Virus record (IMG/VR): IMGVR_UViG_648028025_000010
DNA from: a virus
Taxonomy: Duplodnaviria; Heunggongvirae; Uroviricota; Caudoviricetes
Length of the DNA: 64,000 nucleotides
Reading direction: 5' to 3' (one strand)
Positions 3,001-9,000 of this stretch are shown here, piece by piece (the stretch's first letter is position 1; each line of letters starts with the position of its first letter). The position numbers are program-made.

Positions 3001-6000
3001 TCGGTTTTCTCCGGTGGCACGGTGTTACTCAGCGGGAGTTCAGCCCCGCGCAAGATTGTAGATGAGTTTATTCTCCTGAAAAAGCAGAAAAGCCAGCTTT
3101 TATTCCGATCTCTTTCAATGCCTGTAATGAAGTGACAAACTCACCTTCGCGCAAGATAAATCCGTCCGTGACCCGAGCATCCACAAAATTAATTAACGCA
3201 GCCCCATTCTTTCGCAAACACATAATGCGGTAATGACTAACAAGATTTCCATTTTCAACGCACACAGCATAGAGGCCATCTTCACAAAAAATTTTACGCA
3301 GTTCTTCGATGTTCATCATCAGAATCCTTCCGGATAATTAGCTCTCCCCTTTAAGGGACCATCCCTCTTATCCCTGCGCGCTACTTAAGTATTTTTGATT
3401 CTATTCCGGCACCGTCCAGAACTTCAAACGCGTTGAAAATAAAAACAAAAACCCGCCGAAGCGGGTTAAGTGCGGGTGCGTTGAGGATGCCTGCCACATC
3501 AGAGGTGGCGAGGGATTTCTCCCCCGCCGGGTCTCTTACTCCTCAGGTTCGTAAGCTGTGAAGACAGCGACCTCCGTCTGGCCGGTTCGGATTCGTACCT
3601 CGCAGAGGTCTTTCCTCGTTACCAGTGCCGTCACTATGACGGTTAAACAGATGACGATCAGGGCGATTAACATCGCCTTTTGCTGCTTCATAGCCTGCTT
3701 CTCCTGTCAACGCAAAGCAGAAGTGTCACCTTCGGTGCGAAACAGAGATGTCATGCTTTGGTTCAGAGAATGCGTTTGACCGCCTCGCTATATACTTCCG
3801 AGCGTTCTCTTTTCCCAACAGAAATCACGAAAACGACAACTTTCTCGTCTATAACCTGGTATACAAGGCGATAGCCTGAAGACCGGAGCTTAATCTTGTA
3901 ACAATCAGGCATACCACGGAGCTTGTTTGCTTCAATCCGGGGTGACTCAAGTACTTCAACCAGCTTCTTTTTCAACTGTTCACGTACCGTCGAGCCCAGC
4001 TTTCGCCATTCCTTTAGTGCCCGCTCGTCAAAATCCAGAAAATACGCCATCAGAGTTCATCCAGCGTCACACGTACTGGCTTAGGATTACGAAGCCGTTC
4101 TTTCACTATCTCCACAAGTTCAGCATCTTCATCACTCAGGAGTGTCTGTTTGAACGGCAAGCGTTCATTGTCAGCGATATACTCGAGCATGAGACGAAGC
4201 GCTTCAGAAGGAGTTACACCCATTTTTTCAAGCGCGGCGTAAGAACGCGCTTTAAGTTCATCGTCAATACGCAGGTTAATGCTACCCATGTCTTACACCT
4301 CTTGTAATTACAAATGTCATTACAAGTATCGCACTACAACATGCTTAGGGCAAGTCACGAAGGAAGTCAGAAAGTAGTCGTAAGAACGGTGATCACTGTC
4401 CGCTTTGTGCCAGGAGCAGCCATTGCTAAGTCCATCCTGTATTGTGCAGGTCAGCTCGTTTTTAAAGAGTCCGGCCATCATCTTACTGGTACAGACACCA
4501 TATACTTTGTGACGGTCAGGCTACATATGCACAACTCAACTTATTCATCTATTTTTTGCTTTAGCATGTCAGTGTTGCTTTCTCGTCGGCGGGTGAGCGG
4601 TGACCTGACCTGTCGATAAAGGAACGTAGCACGTTTTATGCAACACCCGCATGCGGCAGAAAATTATTGCCGAACGTTTACCCCTGTCAACAAGCTTTAC
4701 TTTCTGAGGCGCGCCAGCCCGCGAGGAAAACAATCTGAACATCAAACAATTAATGACACAAGAAATACGATTAAAGATTTTTTTGTGCATGCCGATAGTG
4801 CTTTTTTAAAAGGAGAAATCTATGTCTGTCACAATTCAGGGAAATACCTCAACCGTTATTTCAAACAACTCCGCCCCGGAAGGAACATCAGAAATAGCCA
4901 AAATCACAAGACAAATTCAGGTGCTGACTGAAAAGCTTGGGAAAATCTCATCGGAAGAGGGGATGACGACACAGCAGAAAAAAGAAATGGCTGCATTGGT
5001 ACAGAAGCAAATTGAAAGCCTCAGGGCTCAACTGGAGCAGTTGTTAAGGCAGCAGGCAGAGAAAAAGAATAAAGACGCGACAGTTCAGCCTGATAAAAAA
5101 GAAGAGAAAAAAGACGATACAAATACCGCTGGCACCATTGATATTTACGTCTAAGTGACAGCCGTATTGTGGCCCTCATCGGGCCACTTTTCGCCATCAG
5201 CCTTTTCTTTAAAGACATATTATCTTTGTATCATTTCTGATAGTTAACATTACAAGATATAAGTAATGGACGCACTCCCAATTAGTCTATTTAAATCGCC
5301 ACGAGTTTAACTGACAACCCATGATCAATTATGAATTGCAACTATTTCTGTAGTCACTTTTGTGGGGACAGTCCACAAAACTGCCAACTTCCGCTTCTTG
5401 CTCTTAGCGGACATTAGCATAGGCTATTTACCATAACGCCTCATTACGCGCACCGCCCAGACTGACTCAGCGCGTTTCTGGCATATCCCCGGTAAAACAA
5501 GTAACAAACCACCCGAAAATGAACATCAGAAACGCGACTTAAGAATCTACCCTATGAATGGATATGCACTCAACCGAATCGATCTTGGTTTCAATCTATT
5601 TTATCGGGATCAGGCTTCTTTTTAGGTAACTTCGGGGGCTTAACTTGCTGATGACTTTGCGTTCGGCGCGTAAGCCAGGGATGGTCAGCTTTAGATTTAA
5701 CATAGTATTTTGAGCGTAAATCAATACGGGCATTATCCACTCGTTCATGGACACTCTTTTCATCATCCAGTGGTATAGGCTCCGGGCCATCAACATACTT
5801 TTCCCAGCCCAGCGCTTTCCCGTCATACAGAACGTTAATTTCACCGTCAAAGTTCTCACATACAGTAACAACCGAATGCCTAAGTCGATATCCCCGGCCC
5901 TCACTGCGTACCTGAAACGCACTGCTTTTGTACTGGAAAGTGAGATTTTTAGACAGAACGCGCTTCGCCTGTAGGCTGAAGATATAACCCAGTTCCTCTT

Positions 6001-9000
6001 CAGAATGGTGCACATCAAGATGAGCATTATCAGTAGTACGAGGCGACGTAGCGAACCGGTTGTTATAGGCTTCAATAAAGGTCGGCAACCATGCATTTGC
6101 TGTTTCAATATCACTGATATTCTGAAGCCGCATTTCTTTGACCAGCCTGTCCTGTAGTGTCTGATTGGCGCGCTCTACCCGCCCTTTTGCCTGCGGGCTG
6201 TTGGCATGGATTGGCTCGATGCCCAGTGTCTTTATCGCACGAGTGAACTGGGTCAGCTCACCTTCCCGCTCTGGGTTATTTACCCTGAATATACTGTGTC
6301 TATCAGAGTAGAGAGCGAGCGGTACGCCATGATCATTAAGGTAACCCCGGAGGGTTTCCATGTAAGCCCGGGTTGTTTCAGCAGGCACAAAACGCAACGC
6401 CATCAACGCACTGGTGGCATCATCAATGAAAACGATCAGTGTACATCTGGGGCCTCGATTTTCAAACCAGTCATGAGGTGAGCCATCAATCTGGATCAGT
6501 TCACCGTAAGATGGTCGTCGCATGCGGCGTTGATATATACGGGCAATTTTACGACGGCGTTCACGCCATAACCCCTCTTCTATCATCCACTTTCTGAGAG
6601 TTTCAACGGATAAAGATAAACCGTGTATCTCGCGCAATTTTTCGCACGCAAACGTAGGTCCAAAATCAGCGTAACGGCCTTTGAGGAGTGAAATTACTGT
6701 TGCTCTGAATTCAGTAGAAAAGGAATTATTAGGACGCTTTCCACGTCGGTGGGAAACCAGACCAGAAGGCCCTTCATTTCTATACCGTTGCACCAGACGT
6801 TTAACCTGCCGAATAGAAATGCCAATGCGTGCCGCAGCTTGTTCCTGAGTAATATGTCGATTAATTGACTCCTGAATAATCTGAAGTCGGTGGAGTTCCT
6901 TATGACTCATCGTAACAGTCTCTTTGATCATGAAAAATCCCCCAGAGAATTGTCTGGGGACATTTTAGAATGGTTCAAAGGGGACATTACAGCTTGGTGT
7001 TAACAATAGCCTGCTTCTCCTTGCCTTCCGGCACTCGCGACAGATTATGTTTAGACGACTGTCGTAGCGACGTATTTCTCCGTCAGGTAATGACCAGATA
7101 AGGTCCGGATCAACCACAGCAGGTTTCTTCACCTTTGCCCTCGAGAGTTTTTTGCGGGCGTTTTGCCAGTCCTTACGCGCCTGTTCAGACGGGAATAACC
7201 CGTAACCAGAGCTGTATACATCGCCACTGGCAACCAGCTCTCTGGCCAGAACGCTCATCAGATATCTTGTTGCCCCAGTTTTAGCTTCCAGTTGTCGTAA
7301 CGTCTCGCGCCCACTCTGGCGTACGAGTTCCACCACCTGCCCTTTAATTTTTTCCCGCTCTTCTTGTGTAAAAACTTTTGCCACAAGTCCTCCTGAACAT
7401 TACTTTATACCCTAAAATCAACACTTATCCCCTGAAACCAGGCGGAATTTCTGTATCCGGTTCAGAAATATGATTCACACAACGCTGTACAGGTGAACGT
7501 CCCAGGCGGATGACCAGTTCGTCCCATTTTTCGCGGAGTTTTGACGGGCTCATGATGTTTTTTACCCAGAATTGATCTCGCTGTACCCGACCAAACATTT
7601 CGCAAATTTGTCTGTGGCTTCTGCCATCCAGCATCCGCATTGTGCGCACGTCATTGGCCCAGGCTGTCCAGTTAGGCTCTTTTGGTCGCATGATCTCTCC
7701 ATCGTCGCTGGCAGCCTGTTCGTAAAGGTTCACGATCCGCCCCCAAATCCACTGCGCACACGCCAAATCCTCCCTGCTACCCCACTGGCGTTTTTTCGCA
7801 CTAAACACAACCGCGTCGGGGTTCCGGGTTAAAAAATCCTGTTCAGCGGTCTGCTGGTCCGGTTGCGAAGCTTCCGGACGAAAAGTGTTTTTATTCTCTG
7901 TAGTAATCTCTGTTGTATTCTCTGTAAGATCATCAGGCCATTTTGACCCGATGACATTGGGTCGTTTTGAACCAATGGAGCGTTTCATTTTGACCTCTTC
8001 CATCGTGTCATTTTGACCTGATGGAGCGGCGCATTTTAAACCGATGGATTCGCTCAATTTGCCACCATCTAAAAGCTCGCTCCCGTAGTTGATCGTGTAG
8101 AAATTGGTCATATCGCGCTTTGATTTATTGAGCTTTTCACAACGCAAAAGCCCCAGCGTTTTCAGACTTGCAAACGCGCGCTTTAACGTTGACTCTGACC
8201 AGAATGGGAACTGTTCCAGCCATTGTTCCGTTGTGTTGTAAATCCAGCGAACACCATCACATTCCATGCCGGAATTGGTATCTCTCAACCAGTAATGCAA
8301 CTGCTGCAACACAATGGCTTCATTTAAGCCAATCTTCATCGCAAGCTGTGTGTTTATAACCAGTGGGCGTTCAGCAAAAAGAAGGCTCATAATTCCATCC
8401 AGCTTTTTGTTGGTATTGCTGTCGATACGCAAGTTTGAAAGCAATTGCTTTTTCTATAAGTTCGTCAGTTTCACGATCCACTACGGCAGGATCAGCAAAA
8501 AGCAGTCCGGACTCCACCACATCGCCATATTCTTTGTTTAACCCGGCGATCATGTACGTGATGCTTTTTCCGTCACTAATTTCACGATACAACCTGAAAT
8601 CATTAATCCGAATAGCCTCCATAATTGCAGGCACTAGCGCCGTGAACTTTTCACGCTTATCCCTGGTGTCGATAGCCTTCCAGCGTTCGAATATCTTCAC
8701 TCGATTAACGCCAAGTGCTCGCTGATCAACCGCGCCACCTTCATCTGTGACACGCTGAACATCGATGTTCGGGCGCTCTTTCAAAGCCCAGAATGCTTCA
8801 GTGATTAATATCGTCGCCTGCTCCTGTGTCATTCCTGGTCGACATATCCAGGCATCCAGAGCCTCACGAGCCTGTTCAGGAGTGATTTTCATTGTTCAAC
8901 CGCCCCGCCCGCTTCGTCTTACGATATTCGTCATAAACCTTGGGATCATACAGAAGCTCGCCGCCAGATGCCTCCTGTAGACGCATCGCGCGACCTTCAG

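What the first reader, a model, noticed from the sequence alone, without database searches (positions are those of the whole stretch)
5155..7384. A third transposase occupies the slot of the helicase-loader gene in prophage A
Downstream of the O-like gene prophage B has a DnaC-like loader. Prophage A instead has an unrelated 139-aa ORF followed by a 446-aa single-ORF DDE transposase. I could not define the element ends; repeated GGGGACA motifs at 5376, 6958 and 6985 are in direct, not inverted, orientation. Prophage A therefore carries three insertion sequences in about 14 kb.
Basis: partly seen in the sequence, partly recalled or inferred. Interest (0 to 1): 0.4.

Follow-up and report, generated by a model that had tools for sequence, protein, structure and literature searches.

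The report
hok-targeting relBE transposon, not loader replacement
The transposase is real, but it belongs to a 3.3-kb transposon carrying the relBE toxin-antitoxin genes that inserted precisely into the ribosome-binding site of the prophage's hok toxin gene; the helicase-loader gene was never present in this type of prophage.

Summary
Both ORFs exist as described. The 446-aa protein (5591-6931, minus strand) is an intact DDE transposase of the IS1202/ISNCY family, ISEsa1 type. It is not an integrase. The 139-aa ORF is not unrelated. It is the prophage's own lygF/DUF977 gene, native for residues 1-117 and then fused to foreign sequence.

The element spans window 3705-7005 (3301 bp). It has imperfect terminal inverted repeats (19/26, TGT...ACA) and a perfect 15-bp target duplication, ATAGCCTGCTTCTCC, which is the Shine-Dalgarno sequence plus the first bases of the hokD start codon. 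It carries relE, relB, ydfV and flxA.

Near-identical elements with other cargo (2.6-12.8 kb) sit at the same position in about ten different hok loci, each with its own duplication. Empty sites were recovered for two of them.

Three phage genomes in the phage collection (one labelled complete), all with this replication module, have O-like then LygF and no DnaC-like gene. The transposon therefore does not occupy a loader slot.

A separate 2.5-kb deletion joins the hok leader remnant to lygF at 7033/7034. The E. coli K-12 region relBE-hokD-flxA-ydfW is a truncated copy of this transposon.

The parts
3536..3691 (-). hokD ORF (51 aa), the target gene. It keeps its Shine-Dalgarno sequence and ATG through the left copy of the target duplication.
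   Evidence: Pfam HOK_GEF 1.2e-23. Annotated hokD in RM10386 and K-12.
3690..3704 (.). Left copy of the 15-bp target-site duplication, ATAGCCTGCTTCTCC. Its reverse complement, GGAGAAGCAGGCTAT, is the hok SD, spacer and the 'AT' of ATG.
   Evidence: Exact direct repeat with 7006-7020 (D7). Present once in phage mEp460_ev081.
3705..3730 (+). Terminal inverted repeat at the relE end: TGTCAACGCAAAGCAGAAGTGTCACC. A second ATGTC motif lies at 3748-3755.
   Evidence: 19/26 (22/30) identical to the other end. The degenerate consensus was derived from the two ends themselves, so it matches them by construction; it finds no other site in 64 kb and none in shuffles. The same repeat bounds elements in L003, L005, L013, L018, L019 and L028.
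3763..4050 (-). relE toxin gene. It is a passenger in the conserved left arm and reads outward toward hokD.
   Evidence: Pfam ParE_toxin 2e-13. Annotated relE, WP_000323025.1. The left arm 3705-4417 is conserved at 96-99% in all full elements.
4050..4289 (-). relB antitoxin gene (conserved left arm).
   Evidence: Pfam RelB 1e-32; annotation.
4397..4417 (+). Inner inverted repeat, left copy: TGTCCGCTTTGTGCCAGGAGC. It marks the end of the conserved left arm and the start of the variable cargo.
   Evidence: the repeat finder I3. Arm homology ends at 4416/4417 in L013, L018 and L019.
4418..5385 (.). Variable cargo of this copy: the 3' part of the ydfV ORF (4314-4619, +; this ORF straddles the arm/cargo border), flxA (4822-5154, +), and a non-coding tail with a hairpin at 5350-5388.
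   Evidence: Pfam FlxA 1.9e-14. Other family members carry 2.1-10.5 kb of different DNA here.
5386..5413 (-). Inner inverted repeat, right copy: TGTCCGCTAAGAGCAAGAAGCGGAAGTT on the minus strand. It marks the start of the conserved transposase arm.
   Evidence: Arm homology starts at 5375-5396 in L013, L018, L019 and L004-L011.
5591..6931 (-). Transposase, 446 aa (439 aa from Met8). DDE triad inferred as D149, D210, E253. The ORF is intact.
   Evidence: NCBIfam transpos_ISNCY_2 1.2e-139. Pfam HTH and rve_3. Two residue differences from plasmid WP_004196353.1. YSD and VERA align with catalytic residues of a retroviral integrase core.
6939..6960 (-). GC-rich stem-loop followed by a T-run, immediately upstream of the transposase start. 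It overlaps the inner end-repeat.
   Evidence: Terminator-like hit. Function is inferred: it may block read-through from outside.
6980..7005 (-). Terminal inverted repeat at the transposase end: TGTTAACACCAAGCTGTAATGTCCCC. An inner copy of the ATGTCCCC motif lies at 6956-6962.
   Evidence: D5. The exact 24-mer occurs in 16 species-representative genomes.
7006..7020 (.). Right copy of the 15-bp target-site duplication.
   Evidence: D7.
7021..7033 (.). Thirteen-nucleotide remnant of the hok leader (TTGCCTTCCGGCA). The rest of the mok/sok region is deleted.
   Evidence: Alignment with mEp460_ev081 and with plasmid hok leaders.
6965..7384 (-). lygF/DUF977 ORF. Residues 1-117 (7034-7384) are native. 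Residues 118-139 are read from the hok leader remnant, the duplication and the transposon end. The deletion junction is at 7033/7034, at the microhomology CCGGCA.
   Evidence: 98% identical to mEp460 LygF over residues 1-119 only. Pfam DUF977 covers profile positions 1-115/134 here against 1-131/134 in the intact 133-aa protein. Junction shown.
7425..8444 (-). O-like replication initiator. It is context only and not part of the transposon.
   Evidence: PHROG 391 'replication initiation O-like' 5.5e-93. 88% identical to prophage B's initiator.

Best explanation
The 446-aa gene is the transposase of a 3301-bp unit transposon of the IS1202 (ISNCY) family, ISEsa1 type, at window 3705-7005.

Structure of the element:
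- It is bounded by 26-bp imperfect inverted repeats with TGT...ACA tips. Each end has a second subterminal copy of the ATGTC motif.
- It has two conserved arms. One carries relE-relB reading outward. The other carries the transposase.
- Between the arms is a variable cargo slot, here ydfV'-flxA.

History of this locus:
- The element transposed into the translation-initiation region of the prophage's hok gene and duplicated 15 bp (SD to the 'AT' of the ATG).
- This cut hokD off from its own promoter, mok frame and Sok target, and placed it 71 nt downstream of relE. The arrangement is the 'relBEF' arrangement known from K-12.
- Later, a 2.5-kb deletion between two CCGGCA microhomologies removed the rest of the mok/sok leader, an unrelated 449-aa gene and the last 14 or so codons of lygF. 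This brought the transposase next to the truncated lygF.
- In the K-12 lineage, a further 2837-bp deletion (window 5776-8612) left only the last 49 codons of the transposase (ydfW, called intK from memory).

Shown here: the anatomy, the duplication, the empty sites, repeated insertion at the same site in different hok loci, and the native absence of a loader gene.

Inferred: that the 446-aa protein itself selects the hok site; that relBE stabilises the element or substitutes for the hok/sok control it disrupts; and that the upstream hairpin insulates the transposase gene.
For: 1. Ends and duplication. The ends are 19/26 identical with TGT tips. The degenerate consensus, derived from the two ends, matches only those two places in 64 kb. 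An exact 15/16-nt direct repeat flanks them (D7).

2. Empty sites. Phage mEp460_ev081 has the hok locus uninterrupted, with one copy of ATAGCCTGCTTCTCC, and is 95.8-98.3% identical on both sides. For a 12,843-bp relative on a Phytobacter plasmid, the flanks minus the element and one duplication copy match uninterrupted hok/sok loci. The match is 400/400 nt in one piece at 99.3%.

3. Independent insertions. Complete elements of 3301, 3307, 4487, 6093 and 12,843 bp each carry their own duplication (ATGGCCTTCTTCTCC, ATCATAGCCCCTCCA, ATAGCTGACTTCTCC, and so on). Each sits at the SD/ATG of a different hok locus. The transposase-side end abuts 'AT' or 'ATG' of about ten distinct hok leaders among roughly 14 distinct contexts from 16 species. 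The arms are 96-99.7% identical apart from one 91% variant of the transposase arm, while the hok flanks are too diverged to align by blastn.

4. Transposase. It is intact, with two substitutions against the plasmid protein annotated as functional, and it scores above the family cut-off.

5. lygF truncation and deletion junction.

6. K-12 comparison.

7. No loader gene in three related phage genomes.
Against: - No experiment shows transposition or target choice.
- Three of about 14 contexts are not hok (L016, L022, L031), and one (L027) is in the opposite orientation. Specificity is therefore strong but not absolute.
- One duplication is 13 bp rather than 15 (L019), and one has two mismatches (L016).
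- ISfinder, as quoted by Harmer et al. 2023 (PMC10132070), lists ISEsa1 as a 1609-bp IS with 15/22 repeats and no duplication. I could not obtain that reference sequence to show that it equals the right arm.
- A second, inner repeat pair at the cargo borders is unexplained.
- hok loci are homologous to one another, so what feature is recognised cannot be deduced from conservation.
Confidence: 0.85

Rival explanations
1. One reading: a simple 1.6-kb insertion sequence (ISEsa1, about 5386/5397-7005) inserted between flxA and lygF, displacing or replacing the helicase-loader gene.
For: PGAP labels only this gene as 'IS1202-like element ISEsa1 family transposase'. ISfinder's ISEsa1 is 1609 bp. Homology with many plasmids starts at 5386-5396. 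Prophage B has a loader after an 88%-identical initiator.
Against: - The sequence at 5386-5413 is not an inverted copy of the 7005 end. It is in the same orientation, and no duplication flanks 5386...7005.
- The 3705/7005 pair has a good inverted repeat and a perfect 15-bp duplication.
- The left border at 5386 is simply where the cargo differs between family members.
- lygF follows the O-like gene with a 40-nt gap and no loader remnant. Three phage genome records lack the loader.
Confidence: 0.07
2. The relBE-flxA-transposase block spread between hok loci by homologous or illegitimate recombination, or descends from a single ancient insertion. On this view there was no repeated site-specific transposition.
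For: hok loci are homologous, so recombination between them is conceivable. Ramisetty et al. (PMC6379469) describe relBE as 'integrated' into hokD from plasmids without invoking a transposon.
Against: - Each locus has its own duplicated 13-15-mer that matches its own hok sequence on both sides.
- The insertion point shifts by 1-3 nt between loci.
- Most arms are 96-99.7% identical while the flanks are too diverged to align.
- Removing the element and one duplication copy restores an uninterrupted locus.
Confidence: 0.05
3. The 446-aa protein is a phage integrase-type recombinase. This is the first reader's refutation case, and the reading suggested by the historical K-12 gene name intK for its remnant.
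For: Pfam calls the catalytic domain 'Integrase core domain' (rve_3). The K-12 remnant was historically called an integrase fragment (from memory).
Against: There is no Phage_integrase (tyrosine recombinase) domain. rve is the DDE RNase-H fold of transposases and retroviral integrases. NCBIfam equivalog transpos_ISNCY_2 scores far above its cut-off. The prophage's real tyrosine integrase is at 16992-18071.
Confidence: 0.01

Closest known systems
IS1202 family (ISNCY 'IS1202 group'), as defined by Harmer, Pong & Hall 2023 (PMC10132070); specifically ISEsa1
   Same: - Transposase of 439/446 aa with N-terminal HTH domains and a DDE core.
- Imperfect repeats of 22-29 bp with TGT...ACA tips.
- An extra copy of the inner part of the repeat near each end.
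- Long target duplication; other members make 15-17 bp.
- Orientation-specific insertion next to a conserved site, as the ISAjo2 group does at dif/pdif.
- Some members carry a passenger ORF (tISKpn21).
   Different: - The mobile unit here is 3.3 kb (2.6-12.8 kb in relatives), not 1.6 kb.
- It carries a relBE module in a conserved arm plus a variable cargo slot bounded by a second repeat pair.
- It makes a 15-bp duplication and targets the hok SD/start codon. The 2023 paper reported no duplication and no conserved target for ISEsa1.
E. coli K-12 Qin prophage region hokD-relE-relB-ydfV-flxA-ydfW(intK)-ydfX ('relBEF operon')
   Same: 99.8% identical to window 1-5775, with the same genes in the same order.
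   Different: K-12 lacks window 5776-8612. That stretch holds most of the transposase, the transposase-side end, the second duplication copy, lygF, the O-like gene and part of the YdaT-like gene. The transposon cannot be recognised there. This window holds the complete element.
Tn7-like and other site-specific transposons that home to conserved 'safe' sites (attTn7/glmS; ISAjo2 at dif)
   Same: A DDE transposase related to TnsB (per Harmer et al.), TGT ends, several binding-site-like repeats per end, and a fixed site and orientation.
   Different: There are no TnsA/C/D-like genes. The duplication is 15 bp rather than 5 bp. The target is inside a toxin gene's translation-initiation region and disrupts its regulation, rather than being a neutral site.
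Lambdoid replication modules with O plus a DnaC-like or P-type loader (prophage B here; Rac ydaU-ydaV-ydaW)
   Same: The O-like initiator is 88% identical to prophage B's. A LygF/DUF977 gene also lies downstream of the replication genes in Rac-type phages.
   Different: This module type (mEp460_ev081, HannyBb, Evi, Qin) has no phage-encoded loader between the O-like gene and LygF.

Membership tests
IS1202 family (ISNCY, IS1202 group) | Transposase of about 394-507 aa matching the family profile (HTH domains plus DDE core) | tested here: met
   NCBIfam NF033594 transpos_ISNCY_2: 465.5 bits against a cut-off of 250, residues 17-377 on profile 1-365/368. Pfam HTH_28/29/32 and rve_3.
IS1202 family (ISNCY, IS1202 group) | Imperfect terminal inverted repeats of about 22-29 bp with outer 5'-TGT...ACA-3' | tested here: met
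   3705-3730 against 7005-6980: 19/26, both starting TGT.
IS1202 family (ISNCY, IS1202 group) | Additional copy of the inner part of the repeat near each end | tested here: met
   ATGTCCCC at 6962-6956 and 6986-6980 (24-nt spacing). TGTCACC at 3724 and ATGTCATG at 3748. This is sequence only; binding was not tested.
IS1202 family (ISNCY, IS1202 group) | Target-site duplication of a subgroup-typical length (3-5, 15-17 or 24-29 bp) | tested here: met
   15 bp here and in L003, L005, L013 and L018; 13 bp in L019.
IS1202 family (ISNCY, IS1202 group) | Simple IS: transposase as the only gene, 1.3-1.75 kb | tested here: not met
   The element is 3301 bp and carries relE, relB and flxA. It is a passenger-carrying (transporter IS / unit transposon) form.
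ISEsa1 itself (ISfinder entry) | At least 95% DNA identity, or 98% protein identity, to the ISfinder reference | not testable with these tools
PGAP names the protein 'ISEsa1 family'. The 439-aa length from Met8 and the roughly 1610-bp right arm agree with the published 439 aa and 1609 bp.
DnaC/IstB-type or lambda-P-type helicase loader (for the 139-aa ORF) | AAA+ IstB/DnaC ATPase domain, or similarity to prophage B's loader | tested here: not met
   Pfam finds only DUF977. PHROG 142 'Ren-like exclusion protein'. BLASTP against prophage B's loader gives E = 17.
Tyrosine recombinase / phage integrase (for the 446-aa ORF) | Phage_integrase catalytic domain | tested here: not met
   No such domain; the rve_3 DDE core is found instead.
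RelBE type II toxin-antitoxin | RelB antitoxin followed by RelE/ParE-fold toxin in one operon | tested here: met
   Pfam RelB 1e-32 and ParE_toxin 2e-13. Annotated relB and relE, with RefSeq protein ids (WP_000534858.1, WP_000323025.1) that recur on the plasmid copies. The DNA is 99.8% identical to K-12.
[quoted passage not shown] | Hok ORF with upstream mok frame, Sok antisense region and leader | tested here: not met
   The Hok ORF is present (Pfam 1.2e-23). Only 28 nt of leader remain beyond the transposon, and the mok/sok region present in mEp460_ev081 is deleted.

The most novel reading that the evidence does not exclude
ISEsa1-type elements are not 1.6-kb insertion sequences. They are a family of unit transposons that home, in one orientation, to the ribosome-binding site or start codon of hok toxin genes on plasmids and prophages. 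On insertion they replace hok's mok/Sok control with their own outward-reading relBE operon. They carry exchangeable cargo (flxA here; nickel and chromate resistance elsewhere) in a slot bounded by a second, nested repeat pair. The textbook E. coli K-12 relBE(-hokD) locus would then be a decayed passenger of such a transposon.
Probability: 0.6. Interest if true: 0.7.

Novelty: new variant of a known kind. Interest (0 to 1): 0.55.

Why it matters
- It corrects the anatomy of a widely annotated element. ISEsa1 is listed with no duplication and no target, and PGAP even splits the intact gene here into a 'pseudogene' plus ydfW.
- It adds a second example of site-specific homing in the IS1202 family: a type I toxin gene's translation-initiation region, in addition to dif sites.
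- It gives a concrete origin for the K-12 relBE-hokD ('relBEF') arrangement and for the orphan genes ydfV, ydfW and ydfX.
- It identifies a vehicle that moves relBE and heavy-metal resistance cargo between the hok loci of conjugative plasmids and prophages.
- For this window specifically, it shows the prophage's missing loader is not an IS casualty.

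Tried and rejected
- **Inverted repeats inside 4700-7600.** None of the listed pairs was convincing, because the true left end is at 3705.
- **Plasmid homology limits 5386 and 7033 as IS ends.** I first took them as ends. This was rejected. 7033 is the deletion junction with lygF. 7006-7033 is hok leader that also flanks the plasmid copies. 5386 is the cargo border.
- **Shorter right-hand matches (6981-6983, 7005).** These proved to be secondary ISKpn38 and ISKpn28 insertions in other plasmids.
- **First coordinate estimate of 3713 for the left end.** It was a counting error, corrected to 3705.
- **The 163-bp piece 5387-5549 found alone on many plasmids.** I considered it a hok remnant. 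It is an IS26-truncated end of the transposase arm.
- **GGGGACA as an over-represented signal.** It is not above chance window-wide.
- **Rfam scan of 2500-9500.** Only a sub-threshold isrK-like hit.
- **PDB sequence search.** Only a weak retroviral integrase core match.
- **Literature searches.** Searches for ISEsa1 plus hok, for IS1202 family papers from 2023 on, and for hok, relBE and transposon found no description of this transposon.

Full report
**Where the window comes from**

Window 1-18026 is 99.85% identical to the Qin-like defective prophage of E. coli O26 strain RM10386. The annotated order is as follows.
- ydfT (the Q antiterminator), ydfU, rem
- hokD (3536-3691, -), relE (3763-4050, -), relB (4050-4289, -)
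- ydfV (4314-4619, +), flxA (4822-5154, +)
- the 446-aa ORF (5591-6931, -) and a DUF977 gene (6965-7384, -)
- an O-like initiator (7425-8444, -), a YdaT/CII-like gene, and cro-like and cI-like genes

An IS66-family element sits inside xis, and the tyrosine integrase gene follows. Relative to RM10386, the window has an extra 1262-bp IS3-family insertion in int at 18027-19288. After that a second lambdoid prophage (B) begins.

**Checking the observation**

The 446-aa protein matches NCBIfam transpos_ISNCY_2 at 1.2e-139 (465 bits, cut-off 250). Pfam finds HTH_28/29/32 and rve_3 domains. It has no tyrosine-recombinase domain. Its YSD and VERA motifs align with catalytic residues of a retroviral integrase core.

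The protein differs at only two residues from WP_004196353.1, which is annotated as an intact ISEsa1-family transposase on plasmids. In RM10386, PGAP splits the identical ORF into a 'pseudogene missing its C-terminus' plus a 49-aa 'YdfW'. That split is an annotation artefact inherited from K-12.

The 139-aa ORF is DUF977 (Pfam 4e-22; PHROG 142 'Ren-like exclusion protein', 4e-35), called LygF in phage records. It has no similarity to prophage B's DnaC/IstB-like loader (E = 17).

The GGGGACA motifs are at 5364, 6956 and 6980. The heptamer is not over-represented in the window: 6 found against 8.1 expected.

**Finding the ends**

Plasmid copies first suggested limits at 5386 and 7033, but neither is an end.

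To the right of 7005, all plasmid copies continue into diverged but recognisable hok leaders of the form ...GCAAGGAGAAG..GCCAT|. So 7006-7033 of the window is hok leader sequence.

On two plasmids (E. asburiae pEnt261 and an E. coli IncI-gamma plasmid), the 99.3-99.7% homology runs leftward through flxA, ydfV, relB and relE. It stops at the start codon of the plasmid's own hok gene.

At that point the window reads TTCATAGCCTGCTTCTCC|TGTCAACGCAAAGCAGAAGTGTCACC. The sequence from 3705 is 19/26 (22/30) identical to the reverse complement of 6980-7005, TGTTAACACCAAGCTGTAATGTCCCC. Both begin with TGT. A degenerate consensus derived from the two ends finds no other site in the 64 kb and none in shuffles.

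The ends are flanked by the exact repeat ATAGCCTGCTTCTCC, at 3690-3704 and 7006-7020. The element is therefore 3705-7005, or 3301 bp, with a 15-bp target duplication. That duplication is the hokD Shine-Dalgarno sequence, the spacer and the 'AT' of the ATG.

Each end has a second ATGTC motif 24-26 nt further in.

**Evidence that it transposed**

*An empty site for this copy.* Phage mEp460_ev081 carries the uninterrupted locus ...TTCATAGCCTGCTTCTCCTTGCCTTTCGGCACGTAAGAGG..., with the 15-mer once. Identity to the window is 95.8% on the hokD side and 98.3% on the lygF side.

*Complete relatives, each with its own duplication.*

| Locus | Length (bp) | Duplication | Source |
|---|---|---|---|
| pEnt261 (L003) | 3307 | ATGGCCTTCTTCTCC | |
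| IncI-gamma plasmid (L005) | 3301 | ATCATAGCCCCTCCA | |
| Phytobacter plasmid (L013) | 12,843 | ATAGCTGACTTCTCC | |
| L018, L028 | 6093 | ATGGCCTTCTTCTCC | |
| L019 | 4487 | 13 bp | |

*An empty site for the 12.8-kb copy.* Its flanks, minus the element and one duplication copy, match uninterrupted hok/sok loci over all 400 nt in one piece at 99.3%.

*A wider survey.* An exact 24-mer of the transposase-side end occurs in 16 species-representative genomes (Klebsiella, Enterobacter, Kluyvera, Citrobacter, Shigella, Pantoea and others). In about ten distinct hok loci it abuts 'AT' or 'ATG' of the hok start in the same orientation. One copy is inverted, and three contexts are not hok.

The arms are 96-99.7% identical, apart from one 91% variant of the transposase arm, while the hok flanks are too diverged for blastn to align. 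Repeated, recent, site- and orientation-specific transposition is by far the simplest reading.

**Architecture of the family**

All full elements share two arms.
- The left arm (3705-4417) holds the end repeat, relE, relB and the relB upstream region.
- The right arm (about 5386-7005) holds the transposase, an upstream hairpin at 6939-6960 and the other end repeat.

The DNA between the arms differs from copy to copy. Here it is 0.97 kb (the ydfV 3' part and flxA). On the Phytobacter plasmid it is 10.5 kb and includes ncrABCY, chrBA and hupE.

The right arm is 1610-1631 bp long. ISfinder's ISEsa1 is listed as 1609 bp, with a 439-aa transposase, 15/22 repeats and no duplication (Harmer et al. 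2023, PMC10132070). That entry most probably corresponds to this arm alone, which would explain why no duplication or target was found. I could not obtain the reference sequence to prove it.

**An unexplained inner repeat pair**

The cargo is bordered exactly by a second inverted pair.
- 4397-4417: TGTCCGCTTTGTGCCAGGAGC.
- 5413-5386 on the minus strand: TGTCCGCTAAGAGCAAGAAGCGGAAGTT.

Their TGT tips face away from the cargo, and no duplication flanks them. The pattern test is circular, because the pattern was derived from these two sequences.

TGTCMSC heptamers are 3-4 times enriched inside the element. All hits in its left part are on the plus strand, and all in its right part are on the minus strand. 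This observation was made post hoc.

The pair could be a nested non-autonomous element, extra transposase-binding sites, or the arms of a palindrome into which cargo inserted. I cannot decide between these.

**The loader question**

lygF starts 40 nt after the O-like stop codon, and no loader remnant lies between them.

Three phage genome records have the order repressor, cro-like, YdaT/CII-like, O-like, LygF, variable genes, mok/hok, (rem), Q. They are mEp460_ev081, HannyBb (labelled a complete genome from a field isolate) and Evi. None has a DnaC-like gene.

Prophage B has an 88%-identical initiator followed by a DnaC-like gene. A Rac-type phage has O, DnaC-like, YdaW and LygF. The loader is therefore an optional mosaic module, and its absence in prophage A is ancestral to this module type.

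**How the transposase came to lie next to lygF**

Relative to mEp460_ev081, the window lacks about 2.5 kb. That stretch holds the rest of the mok/sok leader, a 449-aa gene of unknown function (PHROG 8571) and the last codons of lygF.

The junction is at 7033/7034, within the microhomology CCGGCA. It lies 28 nt outside the transposon end, so it is not a transposase-made junction.

As a result, the lygF ORF is native for residues 1-117. It is 98% identical to the intact 133-aa protein over residues 1-119, and Pfam coverage is 1-115/134 against 1-131/134. The ORF then reads through the leader remnant, the duplication and the end repeat to a stop at 6965.

**K-12**

K-12 Qin is 99.8% identical to window 1-5775 and then jumps to 8613. 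It has therefore lost 5776-8612. What remains is ydfW (the last 49 codons of the transposase) and ydfX (a YdaT-like remnant).

The K-12 relB-relE-hokD arrangement is thus the relE-side end of this transposon sitting in hok. Its co-transcription is cited from Gotfredsen & Gerdes 1998 in PMC5120126.

Ramisetty et al. noted that relBE had 'integrated' into hokD (PMC6379469). No paper in the searchable library describes the transposon, its ends or hok targeting.

**Mechanism**

*Shown by sequence.* The element has TGT-tipped repeats and subterminal repeats of IS1202-family type, an intact DDE transposase, a 15-bp staggered-cut signature, and a fixed site and orientation at hok.

*Inferred.*
- The transposase itself, or the transposase with a host factor, recognises the hok initiation region. 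This would parallel the way ISAjo2-group relatives sit 5 bp from XerC sites.
- hok loci serve as markers of plasmids and prophages, so homing to them places the element on mobile DNA.
- Insertion severs hok from its promoter, mok and Sok, while the left duplication copy preserves its SD, leaving hok downstream of relE.
- relBE may stabilise the carrier and compensate for the lost hok/sok control.
- The hairpin upstream of the transposase gene may block read-through from the strong hok/mok promoter.

**Verdict**

The interpretation that the transposase replaces the loader is not.

What is actually there is a complete copy of a hok-homing, relBE-carrying IS1202-family transposon, plus an unrelated deletion. 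I rate it a new variant of a known kind, with moderate-to-good interest. The rating is subject to a check against ISfinder and TnCentral, which I could not make.

Noticed in passing
window 4397-4424 and 5386-5413: A second, inner inverted-repeat pair (TGTCCGCT...) lies exactly at the borders of the variable cargo. Its TGT tips face away from the cargo and no duplication flanks it. TGTCMSC heptamers are 3-4 times enriched in the element and strictly strand-partitioned. It could be a nested element, extra binding sites or a palindrome used as a cargo insertion point.
   Followed up: partly
window 5591-6931; RM10386 annotation (L001 12437-13777): PGAP annotates the intact 446-aa transposase ORF as a 'pseudogene missing its C-terminus' plus a separate 49-aa 'protein YdfW'. 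This appears to follow from K-12's ydfW being a named protein. It is an annotation artefact present in many O26 genomes.
   Followed up: yes
window 4314-4619 (+): The ydfV ORF starts in the conserved relB-upstream arm and runs across the inner repeat into copy-specific cargo. It is a chimeric ORF whose 3' two-thirds would differ in other family members, which casts doubt on it as a real gene.
   Followed up: partly
L013 (Phytobacter plasmid NZ_AP018757.1 135515-148357) and L004, L006-L008: A 12.8-kb member of the same transposon family carries nickel (ncrABCY) and chromate (chrBA) resistance genes and hupE between the relBE arm and the transposase arm. It is inserted in a plasmid hok locus next to psiA/psiB. 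Similar copies occur on many Klebsiella and Enterobacter plasmids.
   Followed up: partly
window 18027-19288: A 1262-bp IS3-family element (272-aa rve ORF at 18068-18886) interrupts the 3' part of the Qin-type integrase gene. It is absent from strain RM10386, so it is a strain-specific insertion.
   Followed up: partly
window about 14107-16806: An IS66-family element (TnpA 16075-16752, TnpB 15728-16075, 523-aa TnpC 14137-15708) splits the excisionase gene. The TnpC ORF is open here, whereas RM10386's copy is annotated as frameshifted.
   Followed up: no
window 20345-21331 (-): A 328-aa Peptidase_M85 protein (NleC-like, an NF-kB p65-degrading zinc protease type III effector; Pfam 8e-113) lies at the edge of prophage B. 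Prophage B sits directly beside the Qin-like prophage in this strain but not in RM10386.
   Followed up: no
window 3446-3527 (-): A weak, sub-threshold Rfam match to the isrK Hfq-binding sRNA (25 bits against a gathering score of 50, E = 0.03), just downstream of hokD and toward rem.
   Followed up: no
L014 5337-6686 (phage mEp460_ev081): A 449-aa gene of unknown function (PHROG 8571, no Pfam domain) on the opposite strand occupies the moron position between lygF and mok/hok. HannyBb and Evi carry different genes there. This is the segment deleted in the window.
   Followed up: no
window 7425-8444 and 58654-59661: The O-like initiators of prophages A and B are 88% identical, including an identical C-terminal EPDTEIPPGFRG tail that gives a faint DnaT-like hit. 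Only B is followed by a DnaC-like loader. How the loader-less module recruits the helicase is open.
   Followed up: partly
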